Of a stretch of 64,000 nucleotides of DNA, positions 873-32,093 are shown in pieces. Location of the stretch: the NCBI GenBank assembly GCA_965217775.1, contig CBDCJH010000002.1:416001-480000 (forward strand). Reading direction: 5' to 3'. The translations under genes were made by a program, and so were the position numbers. Every line of letters starts with the position of its first letter. The stretch's first letter is position 1. The stretch is from Acidobacteriota bacterium. GTDB taxonomy: Bacteria; Acidobacteriota; UBA6911; RPQK01; JAJDTT01. The notes under the pieces are model-generated. The model was not told the origin of the DNA. It did not search any database and saw nothing but the letters and a program-made list of their open reading frames with translations.

Positions 873-916
873 AGAACAACCCTCCTGCGGAATTCAGTCA
901 CTGATTCGTATATTTA

Positions 917-990
917 TGCGCCTGGCAGGACTCGAACCTGCGGCACAGGGGTTAGGAACCCCTTGCTCTGTCCTTCTGAGCTACAGGCGC
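917..990 (-). tRNA. tRNA-Arg(CCT)
   Basis: Reverse complement GCGCCTGTAGCTCAG...AAGGGG-TTCCTAA-CCCCT...GGTTCGAGTCC...CAGGCGCA folds as a cloverleaf with anticodon CCT; CCA not encoded. Confidence 0.93.
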
Positions 991-2898
991 AATCGCAAAT
1001 AGTCTAGCATCCTCAGGCTGGAAGCCGCCACGGTATTGGCCCGGACGGATTGCCTACTTTCGACACCGAAAATACCTTGACGGCTGGTGTCGGGGACTAT
1101 ACATCGAACGCCGCTCGTGACCGCATCCCAGTCTCTCTTGGTCGCAAATCCTTAGTTCAACCAGCCACGGAGGCCGAATTTCGAGATGCGTAAGAATGTC
1201 AACTTTTCTTCGATTGGGATCATCCTTCTTCTGCTGAGCTTCACCAGCACCTTCGCCCAAAGGACGACGGCGGAGATCGTGGGCACGGTGACCGATGAAA
1301 CGGGAGGCGTGCTTCCCGGCGTGGAAGTCGTGATCACCAATCTGGACACGGCTCTGACCCGAAGCACCTTCACGAACGATTCCGGAAACTACCACGTCCG
1401 CCTCTTGCCGGTCGGCCGCTATTCCGTCAGCGGCGAGCTGGTGGGGTTCAAGAAGCAGGAAATCTCGGGAATCATCCTCCAGGTGGACCAGGTGGCTCGT
1501 ATCGATCTGAGCTTGGAGGTCGGAGAGATCACGGAGCTGGTGGAGATGGAAGGCACGGCGCCCCTGACCAAGACCGACGACGCCGACATCGGGATGGTGA
1601 TCGAGAACCAGCAGATCGAGGAACTCCCTCTTCGAGGCGAGAACTCCTTCGTCGATCTGGTCTCGCTGGATGCCGGAGCCGCCAAGGTTTCCGGCCATTT
1701 GACGTCGATCTTCACCGATCTGTTCGGAGGCATGACGAACGCCTACGGCTCCCCCCCGGACGGGTCGAGGTTCATGATCGACGGCGTGGACGTGAAGGAC
1801 ACCGCCTATCCCGGATCGATATCCGTCTGAGCGGCAACGCCACCCGGGAGATGAAGTCGCAGATGAACTCCCATTCGGCGGAGTTCGGAATGAACAGCGG
1901 CATCCAGGTCAACATGGTGACCAAGTCCGGGACCAATGAAATTCACGGAAACGTCTTCTGGGACCATCGCAACTCGTCGGCGAACGCACGGAATTTCTTC
2001 GATCCGTCCCGGGAAAGCCGGGTCCGGGAGGGTCTGTCCGAAGTTCCCATCCTTCAATTCAACATCTTCGGCGCCTCGGTCGGGGGACCCATCGTCCAAG
2101 ACCAGACCTTTTTCTTCTTCAACTACCAGGGCACGCGGGAAAACAAGTCGCTCACTCGTCCGGCCAGCGTTCCCACCATGAAGATGAGAAACGGCGACTT
2201 CTCCGAGATACTTCCCGGAACGGTGATCAAGGATCCGTTGACCGGCCAGCCCTTCCCGGGCAACATCATCCCCGAGAACCGGATCCATCCGGTGGCCCGC
2301 AACATGATGTTCGGCGTGGGTGAGGTCAATCCGCTGTGGCCCGTGCCCGATCGTCCCGGAATCGCCAACAACATCCTGCCCAGCCGTGTCCAGGAGCAGG
2401 TCTTCGACCAGTACGTCTTCCGCGTGGACCACAGCCTCACGGACTCGGACAACATCTGTGTCCGATACATTTACGACAAACAGGACCGGGTCCTGCGCTA
2501 CAACAAGTTCCTTCACCAACTCCCCGACTACAACGACATTTTCTCCACGCCCGCCCACAATGCTCGAGTCGGTTGGACCAAGGTCATGGGGGCGACGGCG
2601 GTCAATGAACTGAAACTGGGCGTCAACCGCATGACGCAGACGCTGGAAGATGAGATTTACGGCACGCCGGTTCCGAAGCTCCTGGGAATCGAGGGGACGT
2701 CGACCCTGTTTCAATACAATCCCTGGGTGAACGTGGCTGGTTTCAGCCGGACCGGCACCCTCTTGAACGCTCCCAACAACCGTGTGGACAACACCTATCT
2801 CGCCGGAGATACGATCTCGTGGAACGTGGGTTCTCATGCCCTCGGATTCGGAGGCGAGTGGAGGGAGAGAGAGCAGAACGGGGGATCCCAGCCGATAC

Positions 2899-3012
2899 CC
2901 AACGGTTATTTTATGGGGCTTATATACCTAAGTGCCCTTGGCATACAGTTCTGGCACCACGCTTTCCCCAACGAGATACGTTCCGGTACCCAGGGCAAGA
3001 ACCCCAGCCCTG
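2899..3012 (-). ncRNA. Predicted TnpB omegaRNA core overlapping the tnpB 3' end and TIR, with putative guide 2899-2914
   Basis: Manual fold gives three stems and a loop GGGGUU complementary to the terminal AGCCCC; 5' boundary uncertain. Confidence 0.6.
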
Positions 3013-4103
3013 AGAATGTTCAGGGCGGCATTGTGGTCCCTGTCCATTCCAAGTCCGCAGGCCCTGCACCGGAAGGTTTCGCTCCGCCCTGGATCGTGGC
3101 GGGCGCCGCACCGGTGGCAGTCCTGCGATGTAAATGCGGGATTCACTTCTACGAACTTCCGACCGGCCCATTCTGCCTTGTACTGGATTTGATTCCGCAG
3201 AAGCCCCCAGGATTGCGTCAGTATTTCTCGATTCAGCCCCTTCTTCTTCGAGCCCTTCGTTACCATCCCTTGGATGTTCAGCTTCTCCACAGCGATCAGA
3301 CCGTGCTCACGAATGATCCTGCTGGAGAGACGATGGCAGGCATTACGGTTTCGGACCGATTCCCGGTGACGGAGCCGAGATAGCTGTACGATCCGCTTCC
3401 GTCTGGTCTTGGAAATCTTCTTGCACCTGGAGACCTTTCTCTGCTGCTTTCGGATCTCCCCCCAGTCCCGTCGATTCCGTTCGATCCTCTCACCCGTGGA
3501 CAGCACCGCTCGCTTGCGGACGCCCAGGTCGATCCCTACCGAAGACTCGCATTTCGGTAGCGGCGGCTTCTCCACCTCGTACGTCAGGTCCACATACACC
3601 CGGTTCGGCTTGCGGACAATCCGCAACGCTTTCAACGGGCATCCGTCCGGCAACGGCCGGGACGGAAATATCCGGATCGTCGGGAAGCCCTTGGGCCGGA
3701 TGGCGTAGCCCCGAGCGCGCTTCTTCACCAGGGTCGCTTTGGGGTCGACGACGTCGATGGTCTCCATCCTCGCCAGGGGCCGGAATCGAGGATACCCCGG
3801 CTTCTCCCCCGCCTTGCAGCGACGGAAAAACGCCTTGAAGGCCCGGTCCAACCGCATCAACATCCCACGCTCCGCCTTGACCGCCACCGACCCGAGCCCC
3901 TCCGGATCGTCCTTCCTCTGGGAGGTCAACCCCTTCATCTGATCGTACAGGGTCACGCCGCGTTGCTCGGATTCCCAGGCCGTCCTGCGTTCCTCCAGTG
4001 CAGCGTTGTACAGCCGATTCAGGATGGACCTCACCCCGTCCAACCGCCGGATTCCACCCTTGGACAGCTTGGCTCGGCACTGGATAGTTGCGTGGCCTTT
4101 CAT
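2928..4103 (-). CDS. tnpB: TnpB RNA-guided endonuclease, RuvC motifs intact
   Basis: LYNAALEER, AFKAFF..GEKPGYPRF, RuvC-I GIDLG, RuvC-II IAVEKL, zinc finger CHRC/CRAC, RuvC-III DRDHNAALNI. Confidence 0.95.
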   Translation of the reverse strand: MKGHATIQCRAKLSKGGIRRLDGVRSILNRLYNAALEERRTAWESEQRGVTLYDQMKGLTSQRKDDPEGLGSVAVKAERGMLMRLDRAFKAFFRRCKAGEKPGYPRFRPLARMETIDVVDPKATLVKKRARGYAIRPKGFPTIRIFPSRPLPDGCPLKALRIVRKPNRVYVDLTYEVEKPPLPKCESSVGIDLGVRKRAVLSTGERIERNRRDWGEIRKQQRKVSRCKKISKTRRKRIVQLSRLRHRESVRNRNACHRLSSRIIREHGLIAVEKLNIQGMVTKGSKKKGLNREILTQSWGLLRNQIQYKAEWAGRKFVEVNPAFTSQDCHRCGARHDPGRSETFRCRACGLGMDRDHNAALNILRAGVLALGTGTYLVGESVVPELYAKGT

Positions 4104-4116
4104 GGTCGGAATTGTA
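4104..4116 (-). promoter_or_regulatory. Putative -10 box (TACAAT) for a leaderless tnpB transcript
   Basis: Minus strand TACAAT-TCCGACC-ATG, 7 nt spacing, no Shine-Dalgarno. Confidence 0.4.
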
Positions 4117-5821
4117 ACCCATCAGCCTGAATTCTCGGCACTTACGTATATAATCCCCTATTTTATCTTCGCCCCCGTCTACACCGGTTATGCCATGGCG
4201 GATCTGATGCTGGGCTATCACCGGACGGCCATCACGGGCCGGGAAGACGGTTTCGGAAACTACAGCCACAACAACGTCAGTATCCACTTCAAGGACACCT
4301 GGAAGGTCAGCTCCAAGGTGACTCTGGACCTGGGCCTGCGCTGGGACTACTTCTCACCCTATACCGATTCGAGAGATCGGATCTCGCAGTTCGATCCGGG
4401 TTCGGGATTGCTGATTCTGGTGGGTGATCCGCGCCCGACCGACGCTTCCCACTATGCATTGCCGGCGGAATACGGCGTTGCCGAGCGCATGCTCTCTCCG
4501 TTGATCTCGGACGCGAGCTGGCCTCATGGAAGGCTGCTTCAGGCGCGCGACCTGAACGACTGGGCTCCGAGAGTCGGTCTGGCTTTTCGTCCCTTCGGCG
4601 GAAACGAGACGGTTGTTCGGGCGAGCTACACCCCTTTCGACACCTTCTACATGCAGCGGGTCGGTTTCAACAAGCCCTTCGTGAACCAGCAGACCTTCGT
4701 GAATCAGTTGGACGAGCAAGGTGTTCCCGTGTTCACCATCGACAGGCCGTTTCCTGAGGGCTCGGGTATTCCTTCGTCGACGGGGTAGGGATTTCAGCCG
4801 GATTGGGCCCACGGTTACAACCAACAGTACAACGTCACCGTGGAAAGAGCCCTGTCTCAAACCGCCGTCTTCGAGCTCGGTTACATCGGCAACAAAGGCA
4901 CCAAACTGATCCGCGACGGGAACCTGAACCTGGCGGCTCCCGGTCCCGGCAGCCGCGTGAATCGAAGGCCCTATCAGAATTGGGCGACCGTCGGCTGGAG
5001 ACAGCCCACTGCCAACTCCTCCTATCACGGGATGAGAGTCAATCTGAAGCAGGGATTCAGCAACGGTTTCCTGGGCAACATTTCCTACGTCTATTCCAAG
5101 TGGCTCGACTGTGGTGGAAACAACCTGTTCGCCGACCTGGGGGACAGCGTGAAGAGGAATCCCTTCGACTGTGCGGCGGAAAAAGGGCGCAGCGCTTCCG
5201 ATTACCGGCAGCGGTTCGTCTACAATTTCGTCTACCAGATTCCGGTCATGCGAGGATCCGGCCACGGACTTGCGGGAGCCATCCTGGGTGAATGGAACAT
5301 CAGCAGCATCGGGACCTTCTCTTCGTCCGGGGCGGTCGACGTCGGCAGTCCATTCGATCCCGACAACACGGGAGCGGCCAATCGGCCTGATCTCACCGGG
5401 AATCCGAACAGTGGGCCCCGAAACGCCCAGCAGTGGTTCAATACCAAGGCGTTCACGCGGGTTCCGAATCCGGCGGAAACGGGCGTCTACCGTTTTGGAA
5501 ACGCCGGCCGCAACATCATCGACGGTCCCGGCTGGACCACGGTCGACTTTTCGGTCTGGAAGTCCTGGCACGCGGCGCAGGAAGCAGTACGGATCGAGTT
5601 TCGAGTCGATTTCTTCAACATCACCAATCACACGAACTTCGATCTCCCCAATCGTAATTTCGGAACGGGAGCCTTTGGAACGATGGGCAACGCCGGGAAT
5701 TCGCGGCATCTTCAATTCGGCCTGAATGTCCAGTTCTAGAGATGTCGTCTCAGGCCCGGAAAGAAAACCTGTCGGCAAGTCCGTCTCGAATGGTCTCGAA
5801 TAAGAAGGAGAAGTTGAAGAT

Positions 5822-28328: not shown

Positions 28329-29418
28329 CGCCGGTCGGATCGGAACCGGTATCCATTCGTATTCGAATCAGTCGGGAATGACCGGCAGGACCACATGAGA
28401 CGGGTAGCGGTCATCGTGATAGATGGTCTGGGTCGCGACCTTCATCTCCGCACTCTTGCCCAATGGATTGCCGGTGTTCAAATTCCTGGCGAAACGTGGG
28501 AAGTTGCTGCTGGAAACCTCCAGCCGGATGCGGCTTCCCGGCTGAAACTCCCAACTCGTCTCCCAGATCTCGATTGGAATCTCGTAGACCCTTCCGGGTT
28601 CGATCAAGGTCGGATTTTCCAACGATTCCCGGAAGCTGGCCCGGCGGATCCCCTCACTGATGTGAATTGCCGTTCCATCCGCCAACACCTCGGTCAAGAC
28701 GGCAGTGAAATCGGTGTCGACCGCGCTGGAAGCGGCATAGAGCTTCAACTCGATGGGGCCCGTGACCTCCAGCTTTTGGGTCAAGGGCTCACTGGTATAG
28801 ATCAGGACGTCGTCCCGCTTCTGGACGGGCCGGCGGTCCTGAGGCCCTCTCTGGTCGGGAGGAAACTCGGTCTGTCCTCCCACGGTGGGGACGGGGTTGG
28901 CGGGATCGTATTGGAAGCTGTCTTGAGGAGCACCGTCAGGCGGGGGTGACGTTCCCAGGGTGCCGTCGCCAGGGACGGAGTTGGCGGCTCCGCCGCTATT
29001 CAGGTAGTACTTGGTCCACCGGGTGCGGGCCAGGGGCCATTCGTGCTCGTCACGCCACTTGTTGGCGCGCATCACGAACAGCCGGATGGGGGCCTCCTGG
29101 TCGATGCCGTTGGGGATGCCCTTGAGCCAATAGTCATACCATCGGACGTGCAACTCCTCGACGTCGAGAAGGGAGGATTCCCCAAAGTCGATCACCCAGT
29201 TGTCGTAGGTCTGATTGTAGGAATGGGACCAGGGTCCGACCAGGATCTTGGTCTGCTTCCGGGCCAACTCGGATCCCCCTTCCTCTCGAAAGCCGATGAA
29301 CTGCCGCCAGATCTCATGTTCCAGGTTGTCGTACCAACCGGTCAGGAAGTAGGCGGGGACCTGGATCTGGTCGTACTTTCCCTTGGGGATTATATACGAA
29401 AGTGCCGAAACCTGAGCA

Positions 29419-29601
29419 TTAACGCCGGTTCCGTGGCCGGTCTATCCATCTGATATTCACGGGCTGGACCAATGCACGGGCCAGCTCCTCGAAGTCTGCT
29501 TCCACGCGCATATCCGGTTCCAGTTCGGCCTTGGTCGGTTGGTAGGAATCCTTGACCAGTTCGATGGTGGGATGTTGGGGATTGTGTCTGGGTTTCTTCA
29601 T
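29419..29601 (-). CDS. 60-aa hypothetical IS passenger protein
   Basis: ATGA overlap with the preceding passenger ORF; ends 8 bp before the TIR. Confidence 0.55.
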   Translation of the reverse strand: MKKPRHNPQHPTIELVKDSYQPTKAELEPDMRVEADFEELARALVQPVNIRWIDRPRNRR

Positions 29602-30103
29602 GCGGCCCTCGGCATCCTAGGTTGTTTCCCCTCAAAGTAGTCTTCCGCCGTGTAGATTTGAATCTTGGGCAGGTCCATGAAGCGTCCGGCGTTGACGGCG
29701 GCATTTCTCATGCCGTTGGTCACTCGGTCTCGAAAGCAGGTGAAGATGCCGAGATCAGCTCCGGCCTGTCGACGTGCGCCGTTGAAGGCTTGGACGTGTC
29801 CGGGATTGGTAGAGCCGCCTTTGACCTGAGAAACGATGTCAATGAACCGGCCCTTGCGGATCGGGAGCCGTCCCACGCCGTCAATTCCGCCATCCCGTCT
29901 CTGGATTCGGTTCGGCTCCGTACCCTCCACCAGAGCAGCAGCCCACCTCTCAAACCGGAATTTATCGATGCTGGCAAGCTCCTGAGCGTGTGTGATGGTA
30001 TGGGGAAGGCCAATGTCTTGGGTGTGTTCCCAACGGATTCATCCGGGACATCCTCCCGCATGACTTCAAGGTGGTCTCCAAAGCTCAGTCGATTTTCGTT
30101 CAA
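29598..30103 (-). pseudogene. Internally deleted DNA methyltransferase-restriction endonuclease passenger gene
   Basis: NRLSFGDHLEVMREDVPDESV (MTase start, cut before DPPF) then, in another frame, DKFRFERWA..DGGIDG..IVSQVKGG (Mrr-like nuclease). Confidence 0.72.
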
Positions 30104-31050
30104 CCCACCAAATCCTTGTAACGCAGCCGCTTTCCCACCATCCGGTCAGCGACCAGGGCCATTTGATCCAACGTGTCCATGCGCCTTAGGTTGTGACGTG
30201 CGGCAAACTCTCCAACGTATCGGTCGGTGTGCTGTTCCGAGAAGTGGTGAAAGGTTCCGTGGTAACTCCGCTTCAACATCGACCAGAACGATTCGGCTCC
30301 GTTGGTGTGGCAGTTGCCTTTGACGTACTCCTGAAGAGAATGCTTGACCGTCTCGTGATTGACAAGCCGGCCGTAAGAGGTTGAATCGTCGGTGTAGATC
30401 TTGGCATCTTCTCCCACGTGCTCCAAGACGAAACGGGAGAGGGTTTCAGACTTGGTGTCAGGGACGACTCGGGCCGACACTTGGTTGGAGGGGCGATCTT
30501 TGACGGCAGCCACGGCCGTCTTTCCAACGGCTCCACGTCCCTCCAGTTTGGCGCGTTTGGCCTTCGGCATATTCTTCCGCTTTCCGCCGAGATACGCCTC
30601 GTCAGCCTCGACCGGGCCGGAGAACAGGGCCATTCCAGTCAGGTTCAGACCTTTCCGTATCCGGTGAGCAAGGTGCCAAGCCGTCTTCTGTGTTACGTCC
30701 AGGTCACGATGCAGCTTCATGGAGGAAACGCTCTTGAGGCTGGTAGTAAGGAGGTAGGTCGCAAGCAACCAAGTCTGATAGCCGAGTTTGGAGGACTGCA
30801 TAACCGTCCCGACCCGGACGCTGAACCGCTTGCCGCAATCGCGGCAACGATACGGCATGGAAGGATGCTTGGCTCCGGTCTGGACGTTGGTGGAGCCGCA
30901 ATGGACGCAACAGACTTCCTCCGGCCACCGCCGCTTTATGAACCATTCCTCAGCGGCTTTATCGTCGGGAAATCTCTTGAAGAATCCGCGCAGTGAAAGT
31001 CCCTCTCGGAACGCCTTTCCGGGTGCCTTGTTCCGTGTCTCGTAACTCAT
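30100..31050 (-). CDS. IS1595-family DDE transposase
   Basis: Zinc ribbon CVHC/CRDC, QKTAWHLAHRIR, VEADE, YTDD, HTNGAESFWS; GGAGG RBS. Confidence 0.96.
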   Translation of the reverse strand: MSYETRNKAPGKAFREGLSLRGFFKRFPDDKAAEEWFIKRRWPEEVCCVHCGSTNVQTGAKHPSMPYRCRDCGKRFSVRVGTVMQSSKLGYQTWLLATYLLTTSLKSVSSMKLHRDLDVTQKTAWHLAHRIRKGLNLTGMALFSGPVEADEAYLGGKRKNMPKAKRAKLEGRGAVGKTAVAAVKDRPSNQVSARVVPDTKSETLSRFVLEHVGEDAKIYTDDSTSYGRLVNHETVKHSLQEYVKGNCHTNGAESFWSMLKRSYHGTFHHFSEQHTDRYVGEFAARHNLRRMDTLDQMALVADRMVGKRLRYKDLVG

Positions 31051-31075
31051 TGCAGCCTCCTGACTTACAAGACAT

Positions 31076-31104
31076 ATTCTATAGGAAAGTACCGGGATTG
31101 TCAA
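31076..31104 (-). promoter_or_regulatory. Sigma70 promoter of the IS1595 transposase
   Basis: TTGACA-17 nt-TAGAAT on the minus strand just inside the TIR. Confidence 0.7.
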
Positions 31105-32093
31105 CCCCTACGGGAAACCTTTTCGGCACTTTCGTATATAATCCCCTTTCCCTTGGTTCCGTAGGACTTCCAGTAGTCGTCGTAGGTGGGGTGATCCAAC
31201 AGCGTCTTGACCCAGGGACGGTCCACCATCTCATCCAGGGCGGTGTAAAGGGGGAGCCGCGAGAAGATCTCGTTCCAGTCCATCAGGGGATGGTCGAAAA
31301 TGCCGGGCCAGAAGGCCATGCCCCGGTTGACCCAGAGGAACTCGGCCACGAAGATCACGTTCAATTGGGGGATGCCGTCGTTGTAGAGGTGACCGAAGTT
31401 GGTCTCCTGATTGGCGCTCGGCATCAGGGCTTTCAGGTTGGGATGCTGGTAACGGGCCGGCATCACCTGTGTGAAGCCGTCGTAGGAATGCCCGAAGGTC
31501 CCGATCTTCCCGTTGCACCAGTCCTGCTCGGCCAGCCACTTCTGAGTGTCGAATCCGTCCTGCGGGTCATTGACGTAGGGGTGCCAGACCCCCTCGGAGT
31601 CGTGACGGCCGCGGAGATCCACCGTGACCGCGGCATAGCCCCTTTCGGCGAAATAGACCGCCCGGCTCACCACGTCGGGACGCATGTTGTTGTAGGCGGT
31701 CATCAACATCAAAGTGGGGAACGGGCCGGGTGCATCCGGCCGGTAGATGTCAGCCGAAAGATGGACTCCATCCCGCATCGGCACCTTGGCGTCGAGCGAA
31801 AAAACGACCTTGTGCCCGGGTTGGGAGAGTTCGGCCTGTCCACAGCCGAAGACCGTAAACAGTAGAGAGGAAAACACCATCGTCACTATACTGGATCGCA
31901 GGTTGGTCTTCGCCTCGAACATCAGGCCGTCCTCCTGGAAGTGGACCGGTTTTGCGTTGACTTCGTTCCGGGCGGCATGGAGCCGCCAAAGATGTTGCTC
32001 GAAAAGCTGTTTTCTGGTCTCAGAGTCATCAGAATATATCATCCGTGCTGCCCCCCTGCCGATGGTAGTTGTCCAGCAGTCAGGAGACTTTCC

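What the first reader, a model, noticed from the sequence alone, without database searches (positions are those of the whole stretch)
2915..3012. The omegaRNA scaffold appears to be built from the IS1595 TIR itself
Minus-strand manual fold: stem CAGGGC/GCCCUG with loop UGGGGUUCUU (2991-3012); stem GGUACC..ACGU.UCUC-guug-GGGA..GCGU-GGUGCC (2953-2990); then AGAAC and a terminal hairpin UGUAUGCC-AAG-ggca-CUU-A-GGUAUAUA whose 3' arm is the TIR. The last bases AGCCCC can pair with loop GGGGUU as a pseudoknot. Both differences between this TIR and the other one look useful: one creates the tnpB TAG stop and a C-G pair in the hairpin, the other turns a U-U into a U-G in the pseudoknot. Known: TnpB omegaRNAs overlap the gene 3' end and close with a pseudoknot just before the guide. 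Inference: co-adaptation rather than passive cargo.
Basis: partly seen in the sequence, partly recalled or inferred. Interest (0 to 1): 0.86.

Follow-up and report, generated by a model that had tools for sequence, protein, structure and literature searches.

The report
TnpB guide RNA uses IS1595 end
A small mobile element that carries only the RNA-guided nuclease gene tnpB sits between the inverted-repeat ends of an IS1595-type transposon, and the 22 bases of one end also appear to form the last hairpin and the pseudoknot of the nuclease's guide RNA, so one short sequence seems to serve both the transposase and the nuclease.

Summary
Window 2915-4158 is a 1244-bp element with 22-nt inverted repeats and an 8-bp target duplication. 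It carries one intact tnpB gene and occurs 12 times in this genome. Its repeats match, at 21 of 22 bases, those of autonomous IS1595 elements in the same genome, one of them in this window.

A covariance model found the same three-hairpin layout in 61 places across several phyla, each ending exactly at the repeat tip. Hairpin 3, whose 3' arm is the repeat, and the pseudoknot between loop GGGGUU and tip AGCCCC both show compensatory changes. The layout matches the solved ISDra2 TnpB RNA.

Two further results came out. In 40 of 41 independent insertions a G lies just 5' of the duplication on the tnpB-start side, and nothing is fixed at the mirror position. Autonomous IS1595 copies lack this bias, so it looks like a target-adjacent motif. 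The claim that both repeat differences are adaptive is not general.

RNA ends and cleavage are untested. Inverted repeats inside guide-RNA scaffolds are already described for eukaryotic Fanzors, and DDE-linked TnpBs are known. I rate this a new variant of a known kind.

The parts
2895..2914 (-). Putative guide, read on the minus strand just after the scaffold. Its first 8 nt are the target-site duplication (2907-2914). The length of about 20 nt is assumed, not measured.
   Evidence: Inference from the position of the pseudoknot 3' strand at the repeat tip, and from ISDra2, where the guide follows the pseudoknot after one base (PMC10097598, passages). RNA-library contig X1 record 1 runs 2863-4088 across the boundary, but contigs do not prove a transcript.
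2907..2914 (.). 8-bp target-site duplication, guide-RNA side (tattttat).
   Evidence: A contig in run X2 joins 2906 to 4159 and skips 1252 bases, which is the element plus one duplication copy.
2915..2936 (.). Inverted repeat on the guide-RNA side, 22 nt. It matches the repeat of the genome's autonomous IS1595 copies at 19 of 22 positions.
2915..2920 (-). Pseudoknot 3' strand AGCCCC, the outermost 6 bases of the repeat.
   Evidence: 94.8% of cells paired with the loop strand against 85.8% in shuffles (0 of 500 reach it), with compensatory changes at pairs 4 and 5.
2921..2947 (-). Hairpin 3 (equivalent of ISDra2 stem 4). Its 3' arm 2921-2932 lies inside the repeat. Its 5' arm 2937-2947 lies just inside the element.
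   Evidence: 92.1% paired against 77.5% shuffled, and 6 of 8 pairs changed on both sides.
2928..4103 (-). tnpB, 391 aa. RuvC D192, E273 and D356 and the CxxC..CxxC motif are present. The stop codon lies inside the repeat.
   Evidence: Pfam PF01385 and PF07282. NF040570 scores 215 bits against a cut-off of 100. Alignment A1. ISDra2 TnpB 8exa/8h1j, E 3.5e-32 over residues 31-375.
2948..2952 (-). Conserved single-stranded linker AGAAC between hairpins 2 and 3.
   Evidence: Alignments A3, A4 and A6.
2953..2990 (-). Hairpin 2: an outer 6-bp stem, then inner 4-bp and 4-bp stems.
   Evidence: helices 3-5, 97.6-99.1% paired. The inner ACGU/GCGU motif is shared with IS605-type relatives L076 and L079.
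2991..3012 (-). Hairpin 1: a 6-bp stem and a 10-nt loop. Loop bases 3000-3005 (GGGGUU) are the pseudoknot 5' strand. The stretch also encodes residues A-G-V-L of TnpB.
4137..4158 (.). Inverted repeat on the tnpB-start side. It matches the autonomous IS1595 repeat at 21 of 22 positions.
4159..4166 (.). 8-bp target-site duplication on the tnpB-start side.
4167..4167 (-). G on the tnpB strand, just 5' of the duplication on the tnpB-start side. It is a candidate target-adjacent motif.
   Evidence: G in 40 of 41 distinct insertions, 1.83 bits, with the mirror position unconstrained. Not seen for autonomous IS1595 copies.
29385..31146 (-). Autonomous IS1595 copy in the same window, the likely source of the transposase acting in trans. 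The transposase ORF is 30100-31104.
   Evidence: PF12762 134.7 bits. NF033547 177 bits against a cut-off of 75. Repeats and the 8-bp duplication tttccctt.

Best explanation
Window 2915-4158 is a non-autonomous IS1595-type element that carries tnpB in place of a transposase. IS1595 transposases encoded elsewhere in the genome probably move it.

The omegaRNA is read from the tnpB strand across the gene's 3' end and out through the inverted repeat. Its core has the ISDra2 layout: hairpin 1 holds the pseudoknot strand in its loop, then come hairpin 2, a short linker and hairpin 3, then the pseudoknot 3' strand, then the guide. The inner part of the repeat is the 3' arm of hairpin 3. The outermost 4-7 bases are the pseudoknot 3' strand. 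The bases the transposase must recognise are therefore recoded as RNA scaffold.

The guide then starts at or within two bases of the element boundary, so its first bases are the 8-bp target duplication. In an allele without the element, that target is preceded by the base 5' of the duplication on the tnpB-start side. That base is almost always G, so TnpB would cut empty alleles that carry this minimal motif.

Shown here: the repeats, the duplications, the copies, the shared layout and the covariation. Inferred: the RNA ends, the position of the guide, the meaning of the G, and movement in trans.
For: **The element**
- It has 12 copies at 94-100% identity. Ten have perfect 8-bp duplications, 1 has a single mismatch and 1 has none.
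- An allele without the element exists in run X2.
- The repeats match autonomous IS1595 elements at 21 of 22 and 19 of 22 bases.
- Both kinds of element prefer A/T at duplication positions 2 and 7: 41 of 41 for both in tnpB elements, and 9 and 10 of 10 in autonomous copies.

**The RNA**
- RNAalifold on 16 sequences aligned by MAFFT gives hairpins 1-3, with 15 of 28 pairs compensatory.
- Model R1 carries no pseudoknot. It hit 47 places in 91 sources, none of them in the 5 autonomous IS1595 loci given to it. It hit 61 places in the final set. Every repeat-type hit ends at the repeat tip.
- Whole structure: 95.3% of cells paired against 74.1% shuffled, 0 of 500 shuffles as high.
- Pseudoknot alone: 94.8% against 85.8%, 46 cells changed on both sides against 18.3, 0 of 500.
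- Hairpin 3 alone: 92.1% against 77.5%.
- G-U pairs are frequent (GU 40 of 56 at the outer pair of hairpin 3; UG 19 at pseudoknot pair 5). They fit RNA of the tnpB strand only.
- Sister lineages differ on both sides: L063 against L035, L049 against L054, and L190 against L029.
- The ISDra2 RNA has the same order of parts (PMC10097598, passages), and ISDra2 TnpB is the best natural solved relative.

**The flank**
- G at -1 in 40 of 41 insertions, and 13A/11C/9G/8T at the mirror position.
- Six further G405 copies were read by eye. Five have the G. The sixth (L251, with unmatched duplications) has C.
- Of the autonomous IS1595 copies, 6 of 10 have G before or C after the duplication in either orientation.
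Against: - No RNA 5' or 3' end, strand or level could be read. Only contigs were available, and RNA libraries can hold DNA.
- The GGG/CCC core of the pseudoknot never varies. It lies in a Gly codon in the window's clade, so it is uninformative.
- Sliding the pseudoknot partner by -1 still pairs 83.4% of cells, because of the G and C runs.
- The tree test has only 4 independent pairs (p = 0.125).
- Nine of 53 cells at pseudoknot pair 5 are mismatches.
- The guide-side repeat tip is not generally better suited than the other tip (4 better, 11 equal, 2 worse).
- R1 did not find L044 and L074. Their loops were read by eye.
- The 98-nt minimum-energy fold pairs the tip with the 5' arm of hairpin 1 instead.
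- Genome G405 has at least 23 model hits and 74 repeat matches. Its best hit to the IS1595 transposase family scores only 24.7 bits, below the 27-bit cut-off. Movement in trans is unsupported there.
- A one-base motif is unusual for TnpB.
Confidence: 0.75

Rival explanations
1. The complementarity acts on DNA, not RNA. The loop of hairpin 1 would be an internal copy of the repeat tip (a subterminal transposase-binding site), and hairpin 3 would be a palindrome used in transposition.
For: The loop strand is complementary to the guide-side tip, so it resembles the repeat consensus read from the other strand. Many DDE transposons have subterminal repeats (general knowledge, not tested here). One end of the autonomous IS1595 in the window also pairs its repeat with a subterminal stretch (window 31049-31146, z = -1.53).
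Against: - Where the tip has G at pair 5, the loop has U in 19 rows and C in only 6. That fits wobble pairing, not sequence identity.
- Hairpin 3 has GU at its outer pair in 40 of 56 rows, and GU 25 with AU 24 at its fifth pair. These would be A-C mismatches on the other strand or in duplex DNA.
- The structure is found only at the tnpB 3' end. The other end has z = +1.21, and R1 found nothing in 5 autonomous IS1595 loci.
- Hairpins 1 and 2 are shared with IS605-type relatives that have no inverted repeats.
Confidence: 0.08
2. The scaffold is real, but the G next to the duplication is not a target-adjacent motif. It would reflect an asymmetric target preference of whichever transposase moves these elements, or some other requirement of the tnpB-start end.
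For: Only one position is strongly fixed, whereas the known TnpB motif read here has five bases (TTGAT for ISDra2). The transposase that moves the tnpB elements was not identified. G405 has no IS1595 transposase above the cut-off.
Against: - Autonomous IS1595 copies with the same repeat type show G before or C after the duplication in 6 of 10 in either orientation, which is near chance, against 40 of 41 for tnpB elements.
- The signal sits exactly where a motif for a guide starting at the boundary must lie, and the mirror position is free.
- It holds in at least 5 genomes of different phyla with different repeat variants.
Confidence: 0.2
3. Hairpin 3 and the tip are only a 3' end structure of the tnpB mRNA (a terminator or stabiliser). 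The functional guide RNA, if there is one, would end upstream or use a fixed internal guide.
For: The stop codon is inside the structure, and no RNA ends are known.
Against: No run of U follows hairpin 3. Pairing of the tip with a loop 80 nt upstream covaries, which a terminator does not need. The order of parts matches the solved ISDra2 scaffold, where the pseudoknot is followed by one base and then the guide.
Confidence: 0.05

Closest known systems
ISDra2 TnpB with its omegaRNA (IS200/IS605 family; PDB 8exa, 8h1j; PMC10097598, passages read)
   Same: The protein is homologous over nearly its full length (E 3.5e-32). The RNA has the same order of parts: a 6-bp stem 1 whose loop holds the pseudoknot strand, stems 2-3, a stem 4 hairpin, the pseudoknot 3' strand and then the guide. 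The RNA overlaps the gene's 3' end and the transposon end.
   Different: ISDra2 has no inverted repeats and no target duplication, is moved by a Y1 TnpA, and inserts next to TTGAT, which is its motif. Here the end is a 22-nt DDE-type inverted repeat with an 8-bp duplication, the duplication falls in the guide, and only a G (plus a weaker A) is fixed next to it.
Fanzor1 and Fanzor2* guide RNAs in eukaryotic cut-and-paste transposons (Yoon et al. 2023, PMC10711439, passages read)
   Same: That paper predicts that the inverted repeats and the duplications form part of the guide-RNA scaffold. It concludes that transposase-imposed sequence is recoded into the scaffold. This is the same principle.
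   Different: Those are eukaryotic or viral elements of other transposon families. Their short duplication is taken into the scaffold, and Fanzor1 RNAs are reported to lack the pseudoknot. Here the host is bacterial, the family is IS1595, the pseudoknot is kept and made from the repeat tip, and the 8-bp duplication varies and so cannot be scaffold.
DDE-transposase-associated TnpB branches (Altae-Tran et al. 2023, PMC10691335, passages read)
   Same: Six DDE-linked branches have inverted terminal repeats. The TnpB 3' end is mostly within 250 bp of the transposon end. Solo TnpBs sit between ends nearly identical to those of transposase-bearing elements, which suggests movement in trans.
   Different: The main text names IS630 and contains no mention of IS1595 (0 occurrences). 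A 2026 review lists ISL2, IS630 and IS1031 (PMC13565253). Whether one branch is IS1595 may be in supplements I could not open. The passages I read give no RNA structure or covariation for such ends.
IS1595 family insertion sequences and their non-autonomous derivatives
   Same: The repeats are nearly identical to those of elements encoding an IS1595 transposase. The 8-bp duplication and the A/T preference at duplication positions 2 and 7 are shared.
   Different: There is no transposase inside. The cargo is an RNA-guided nuclease whose RNA uses the repeat. The match of the repeat start to the ISNwi1 subgroup consensus is recalled from ISfinder and was not tested.
IS607 TnpB guide RNAs that take in the right-flanking nucleotide (ISXfa1; PMC10711439)
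   Same: A base outside the element can belong to the scaffold. Here the first flank base is A in 30 of 41 insertions and could play the part of the unpaired -1A of ISDra2.
   Different: This is untested here. IS607 uses a serine recombinase and GG crossover sites.

Membership tests
TnpB RNA-guided endonuclease (OMEGA system) | RuvC-like catalytic D, E, D and a zinc-ribbon CxxC..CxxC | tested here: met
   D192 and E273 are invariant and D356 nearly invariant in 27 sequences. C329, C332, C346 and C349 are present. PF01385 and PF07282 match. NF040570 scores 215 bits against a cut-off of 100.
TnpB RNA-guided endonuclease (OMEGA system) | A structured RNA encoded across the gene's 3' end and the transposon end, closing with a pseudoknot before the guide | tested here: met
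   Met by comparative prediction only. No Rfam family matched.
TnpB RNA-guided endonuclease (OMEGA system) | The RNA is expressed and bound by TnpB, with its 3' end in the flank | tested here: inconclusive
   Contigs from RNA libraries of two studies cover the element and cross the repeat into flanks of this copy and other copies. Contigs show no ends or strand, and DNA carry-over is possible.
TnpB RNA-guided endonuclease (OMEGA system) | Motif-dependent, RNA-guided DNA cleavage | not testable with these tools
   Indirect only: G at -1 in 40 of 41 insertions.
IS200/IS605 family element (IS1341 group, tnpB alone) | No inverted repeats, no target duplication, subterminal hairpins, insertion next to a fixed 4-5 nt site | tested here: not met
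   There are 22-nt inverted repeats and 8-bp duplications at 11 of the 12 near-identical copies. NF038281 IS200_TnpB scores 164 bits against a cut-off of 425. The nearest relatives without inverted repeats (L076, L084) do carry a Y1 transposase gene upstream.
IS1595 family (as a non-autonomous derivative) | Ends like those of elements that encode an IS1595 DDE transposase | tested here: met
   21 of 22 and 19 of 22 bases identical to the 1762-bp elements that carry PF12762/NF033547 ORFs.
IS1595 family (as a non-autonomous derivative) | 8-bp target-site duplication | tested here: met
   The autonomous copies also have 8 bp.
IS1595 family (as a non-autonomous derivative) | Encodes its own DDE transposase | tested here: not met
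   The only long ORF is tnpB. The element is therefore filed as non-autonomous.
IS1595 family (as a non-autonomous derivative) | Moved in trans by an IS1595 transposase | not testable with these tools
   Consistent with 12 copies, an empty allele and a shared target preference. Transposase hits above the cut-off were found in 4 of 5 other host genomes, but not in G405.
DDE-associated TnpB branches of Altae-Tran et al. 2023 | Inverted terminal repeats, with the TnpB 3' end within 250 bp of the end | tested here: met
   The stop codon is 13 nt from the element end. Which of the six branches applies, if any, could not be checked because supplements are closed.

The most novel reading that the evidence does not exclude
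In this cross-phylum clade, TnpB has been refitted to a DDE cut-and-paste transposon. The transposase-recognised repeat tip is the pseudoknot strand. The variable 8-bp duplication is the seed of the guide. The motif has shrunk to a single G (perhaps GA), so that about a quarter of random insertion sites can be targeted. The near-universal G would then mean that only insertions whose empty allele TnpB can cut become fixed or persist. That would be natural evidence that RNA-guided cleavage decides the fate of a DDE transposon's insertions.
Probability: 0.4. Interest if true: 0.78.

Novelty: new variant of a known kind. Interest (0 to 1): 0.6.

Why it matters
TnpB is mostly described as a partner of IS200/IS605 and IS607 elements. 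Yoon et al. 2023 ask why prokaryotic TnpBs are tied to those families while Fanzors spread over many transposons (PMC10711439).

This locus, and its relatives in Acidobacteriota, Binatia, Chloroflexota and Proteobacteria, give a bacterial case of the Fanzor-like solution with the pseudoknot kept. The case is multi-copy, polymorphic and has a matching autonomous partner, so it is open to experiment.

The locus offers a natural test of dual constraint on a few bases, set by transposase recognition and by RNA pairing. If the flank signal is a target-adjacent motif, this nuclease would have a very relaxed one. That would interest genome-editing work and would bear on how TnpB helps DDE elements persist.

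Tried and rejected
- **Rfam.** The scan of 2500-4600 at E up to 10 gave one chance match (COG3860, 16.8 bits against a gathering score of 42.5) and no omegaRNA family.
- **Metagenome scan.** With alignment A1 it returned 80 loci, all at 40% identity or less. They added almost nothing to the inverted-repeat clade.
- **Own phylum.** A protein search of 400 genomes found only 3 other genomes at E 1e-40 or better, 2 of them in the same genus. It did not add lineages.
- **RNA-library contigs.** Contig depth is higher over about 2912-3200 than over the rest of tnpB in X2, X5 and X6. Depth is one figure per contig, so I do not count this as evidence of an abundant small RNA.
- **Adaptation of the guide-side repeat.** I tested whether it is specially adapted relative to the other repeat. 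The result was 4 better, 11 equal and 2 worse of 17, so there is no general support.
- **Derivatives without the RNA module.** I looked in G405 for miniature derivatives lacking it, as a control for the G. All six elements fetched still carry the module, so there was no contrast.
- **Origin of the tip.** I considered that the AAGCCCC tail of IS605-type relatives L076 and L079 shows an ancestral pseudoknot strand that pre-adapted the RNA to the IS1595 tip. The model hit is weak (E 0.004), and conservation continues past that point. I left this as a lead.
- **Literature.** Searches for TnpB with IS1595 gave 9 papers, and IS1595 with RNA-guided gave 6. None concerns this association, judged from titles and abstract starts. 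The search ISNwi1 with IS1595 gave 2 irrelevant papers.
Full report
**What is in the window**

Window 2915-4158 is a 1244-bp element. It is bounded by 22-nt inverted repeats (2915-2936 and 4137-4158, 20 of 22 complementary) and by an 8-bp direct repeat, tattttat (2907-2914 and 4159-4166). Its one long ORF, 2928-4103 on the minus strand, is a TnpB of 391 aa:
- Pfam PF01385 and PF07282 match.
- NCBIfam NF040570 scores 215 bits against a cut-off of 100. It stays below the IS200/IS605-specific and IS607-specific cut-offs.
- In an alignment of 27 relatives, RuvC residues D192 and E273 are invariant and D356 is nearly invariant. The four zinc-ribbon cysteines are present.
- The best natural solved relative is ISDra2 TnpB (8exa, 8h1j), E 3.5e-32 over residues 31-375.

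The element interrupts a gene for a TonB-dependent-receptor-like outer-membrane protein (PF13620 and PF25183).

**It is a mobile, non-autonomous IS1595-type element**

- The window's genome (6.43 Mb, 2 contigs) holds 12 copies at 94-100% identity, one of them interrupted. It also holds an 85% relative and several fragments.
- Of the 12 copies, 10 have a perfect 8-bp duplication of their own, 1 has one mismatch and 1 has none.
- The genome has 9 hits to the IS1595 transposase family PF12762.
- The 1762-bp elements that carry these genes have repeats identical to the tnpB element's repeats at 21 of 22 bases on the tnpB-start side and 19 of 22 on the guide side. They also make 8-bp duplications.
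- One such element lies in this window at 29385-31146. Its ORF 30100-31104 scores 177 bits on NF033547 against a cut-off of 75.
- A contig of RNA-library run X2 joins 2906 directly to 4159 and skips 1252 bases, which is the element plus one duplication copy. An allele without the insertion therefore exists in nature.

The 98-nt fold reproduces hairpins 2 and 3, but there the 3' tip pairs with the 5' arm of hairpin 1.
- The 98-nt fold has -41.3 kcal/mol and z = -2.40.
- Control: the outward-reading 98 nt at the other end of the element has z = +1.21.
- Control: the two ends of the autonomous IS1595 have z = +0.49 and -1.53.

The details about the two repeat differences are correct for this copy. 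Position 14 (C) makes both the TAG stop and a C-G pair in the hairpin. Position 5 (C) makes U-G instead of U-U with the loop.

**Relatives**

A scan of one genome per species returned 80 loci.
- In 36 of the 80 the tnpB 3' region ends in the same type of repeat. These are nearly all the relatives at about 38% identity or more. They come from Acidobacteriota/Bryobacterales, Binatia, Dehalococcoidia, Caldilineaceae, a Paracoccaceae genome and a gammaproteobacterium.
- More distant relatives do not end this way. Those from Deinococcus and Alicyclobacillus carry a Y1 (IS200-like) transposase gene just upstream, so they are classical IS605 elements.

All repeat-type ends share one layout:
- hairpin 1, with a loop that begins U/C/G-GGG;
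- a variable hairpin 2;
- a linker of the type AGAA plus one or two bases;
- hairpin 3, whose 3' arm is the inner part of the repeat;
- a tail AA-NN-CCC(C), which is the repeat tip.

**Covariation**

- RNAalifold on 16 Acidobacteria sequences aligned by MAFFT alone predicts hairpins 1-3, with 15 of 28 pairs compensatory.
- With the pseudoknot added, 96.7% of cells pair against 86.3% in shuffles.
- I built a covariance model from that alignment without the pseudoknot (R1). It found 47 matches in 91 sources, none of them in the 5 autonomous IS1595 loci given to it.
- On a wider set it found 61 matches, 56 of them distinct. Every repeat-type match ends at the repeat tip.
- On the 47-row alignment the whole structure pairs 95.3% of cells against 74.1% in shuffles, 0 of 500 shuffles as high.

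On the 61-row alignment, the pseudoknot alone gives:
- 94.8% of cells paired against 85.8% in shuffles, and 46 cells changed on both sides against 18.3.
- Pair 4: GC 27, AU 21, GU 2, other 4.
- Pair 5: AU 19, UG 19, CG 6, other 9.
- The three outer G-C pairs never vary and say nothing. A slide of -1 still pairs 83.4% of cells, because of the G and C runs.

Hairpin 3 alone pairs 92.1% against 77.5%, and 6 of 8 pairs change on both sides.

The many G-U pairs fit only RNA of the tnpB strand. This argues against a DNA-level repeat.

On a TnpB tree of 44 rows, the fourth pseudoknot position changes 5 times on each side. All 4 independent contrasts go together. The sign test cannot reach significance with 4 pairs (p = 0.125).

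**Comparison with the solved RNA**

In ISDra2 (PMC10097598, passages):
- Stem 1 is a 6-bp stem whose loop holds the pseudoknot strand.
- Stems 2-3 follow.
- Stem 4 is a hairpin just before the pseudoknot 3' strand (-6 to -2).
- One unpaired A precedes the guide.

Hairpins 1, 2 and 3 and the tip map onto this in the same order. Model R1 also matches hairpins 1 and 2 of the IS605-type Alicyclobacillus relatives, weakly (E 0.004) and without hairpin 3.

I read this as follows. The 5' two-thirds of the scaffold is inherited from an IS605-type ancestor. The last third is now supplied by the IS1595 repeat.

**The flank signal**

If the scaffold ends at the repeat tip, the guide begins with the duplication. 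A target-adjacent motif in an empty allele must then be the sequence 5' of the duplication on the tnpB-start side.

I oriented 41 distinct insertions by a TnpB protein motif, independently of the flank:
- That position is G in 40 of 41 (1.83 bits).
- The first duplication base is A in 30 and never G.
- The mirror position after the other duplication copy is 13A/11C/9G/8T.
- A/T at duplication positions 2 and 7 occurs in 41 of 41 for both. This is symmetric.

Ten autonomous IS1595 copies with clean ends share the A/T preference (9 and 10 of 10). G before or C after the duplication occurs in only 6 of 10, taking either orientation, which is about chance.

The asymmetric G is therefore tied to tnpB, not to the transposase. 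It is the strongest indirect support that the guide starts at the boundary. Whether the motif is G alone, or GA with the first flank base acting like the -1A of ISDra2, cannot be told from sequence.

**What does not fit, or is missing**

- No RNA ends are known. Only contigs were on hand.
- The guide-side repeat tip is not generally better suited to the loop than the other tip would be (4 better, 11 equal, 2 worse of 17).
- The in-repeat stop codon is seen only in the window and its closest relatives. Bryobacterales relatives stop in the loop of hairpin 3.
- Genome G405 has at least 23 model hits and 74 repeat matches. Its best hit to the IS1595 transposase family scores only 24.7 bits, below the 27-bit cut-off.

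**Prior work**

- Altae-Tran et al. 2023 (PMC10691335, passages) report six DDE-associated TnpB branches with inverted terminal repeats, and solo TnpBs between the same ends. The main text names IS630 and has no mention of IS1595.
- A 2026 review lists ISL2, IS630 and IS1031 (PMC13565253, passages).
- Yoon et al. 2023 (PMC10711439, passages) predict that inverted repeats and duplications form part of Fanzor guide-RNA scaffolds. They state the recoding principle.
- Full-text searches for TnpB with IS1595 (9 papers) and for IS1595 with RNA-guided (6 papers) found nothing on this association.
- Supplements were closed, so an IS1595 branch may already be listed there.

**Verdict**

The principle is known from eukaryotic Fanzors, and DDE-linked TnpBs are known in outline. 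Three things appear to be new:
- the IS1595 association across phyla;
- the covariation-backed use of the repeat tip as the pseudoknot strand;
- the one-base asymmetric flank signal.

I rate it a new variant of a known kind, with interest 0.6.

Noticed in passing
window 2906/4159 junction (run X2): A 1217-nt contig from a sponge metatranscriptome library joins 2906 to 4159. This is the uninterrupted outer-membrane-protein gene with one copy of the 8-bp site. The insertion is therefore polymorphic in nature.
   Followed up: partly
genome G405 (holds L050): This Caldilineaceae chromosome has at least 23 matches to the RNA model and 74 matches to its repeat tip (control 0). They include 372-bp and 706-bp derivatives that keep the RNA module. 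No IS1595 transposase hit is above the cut-off (best 24.7 bits). The elements may be stranded, or moved by something unseen.
   Followed up: partly
own genome C2:4150407-4150872 (L017:1502-1602, minus strand): A roughly 466-bp repeat-bounded remnant has no tnpB but still matches the RNA model at 82.9 bits. Its flanking 8-mers do not match each other.
   Followed up: partly
window 31049-31146 (+), end of the autonomous IS1595 next to the transposase start: The repeat pairs with a subterminal stretch about 45 nt inside, in a long hairpin (-22.3 kcal/mol, z = -1.53). It may be the kind of end structure that limits translation from read-through transcripts. Model R1 does not match it.
   Followed up: no
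window 1186-1830, 1851-2910, 4170-4788, 4840-5739: The interrupted outer-membrane-protein gene is split into further ORFs at about 1830-1851 and 4788-4840. It may be a pseudogene beyond the insertion, or the assembly may have errors there.
   Followed up: no
own genome C2:4647530-4647689 and C2:112034, C2:1287251: One tnpB copy is interrupted by about 160 bp. The end of that insert and its adjoining 12 bases recur at two other places in the genome. This suggests a second small repeat family inserted into the element.
   Followed up: no
window about 905-990, minus strand: This stretch looks like a tRNA gene by eye. I did not run the tRNA finder.
   Followed up: no
L076, L079 (Alicyclobacillus), L084 (Deinococcus): The nearest relatives without inverted repeats are IS605-type, with a Y1 transposase gene upstream. 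L076 and L079 share hairpins 1-2 of the RNA, including the inner ACGU...GCGU motif. Their conserved 3' tail reads AAGCCCC and then continues into a small GCC/GGC hairpin.
   Followed up: partly
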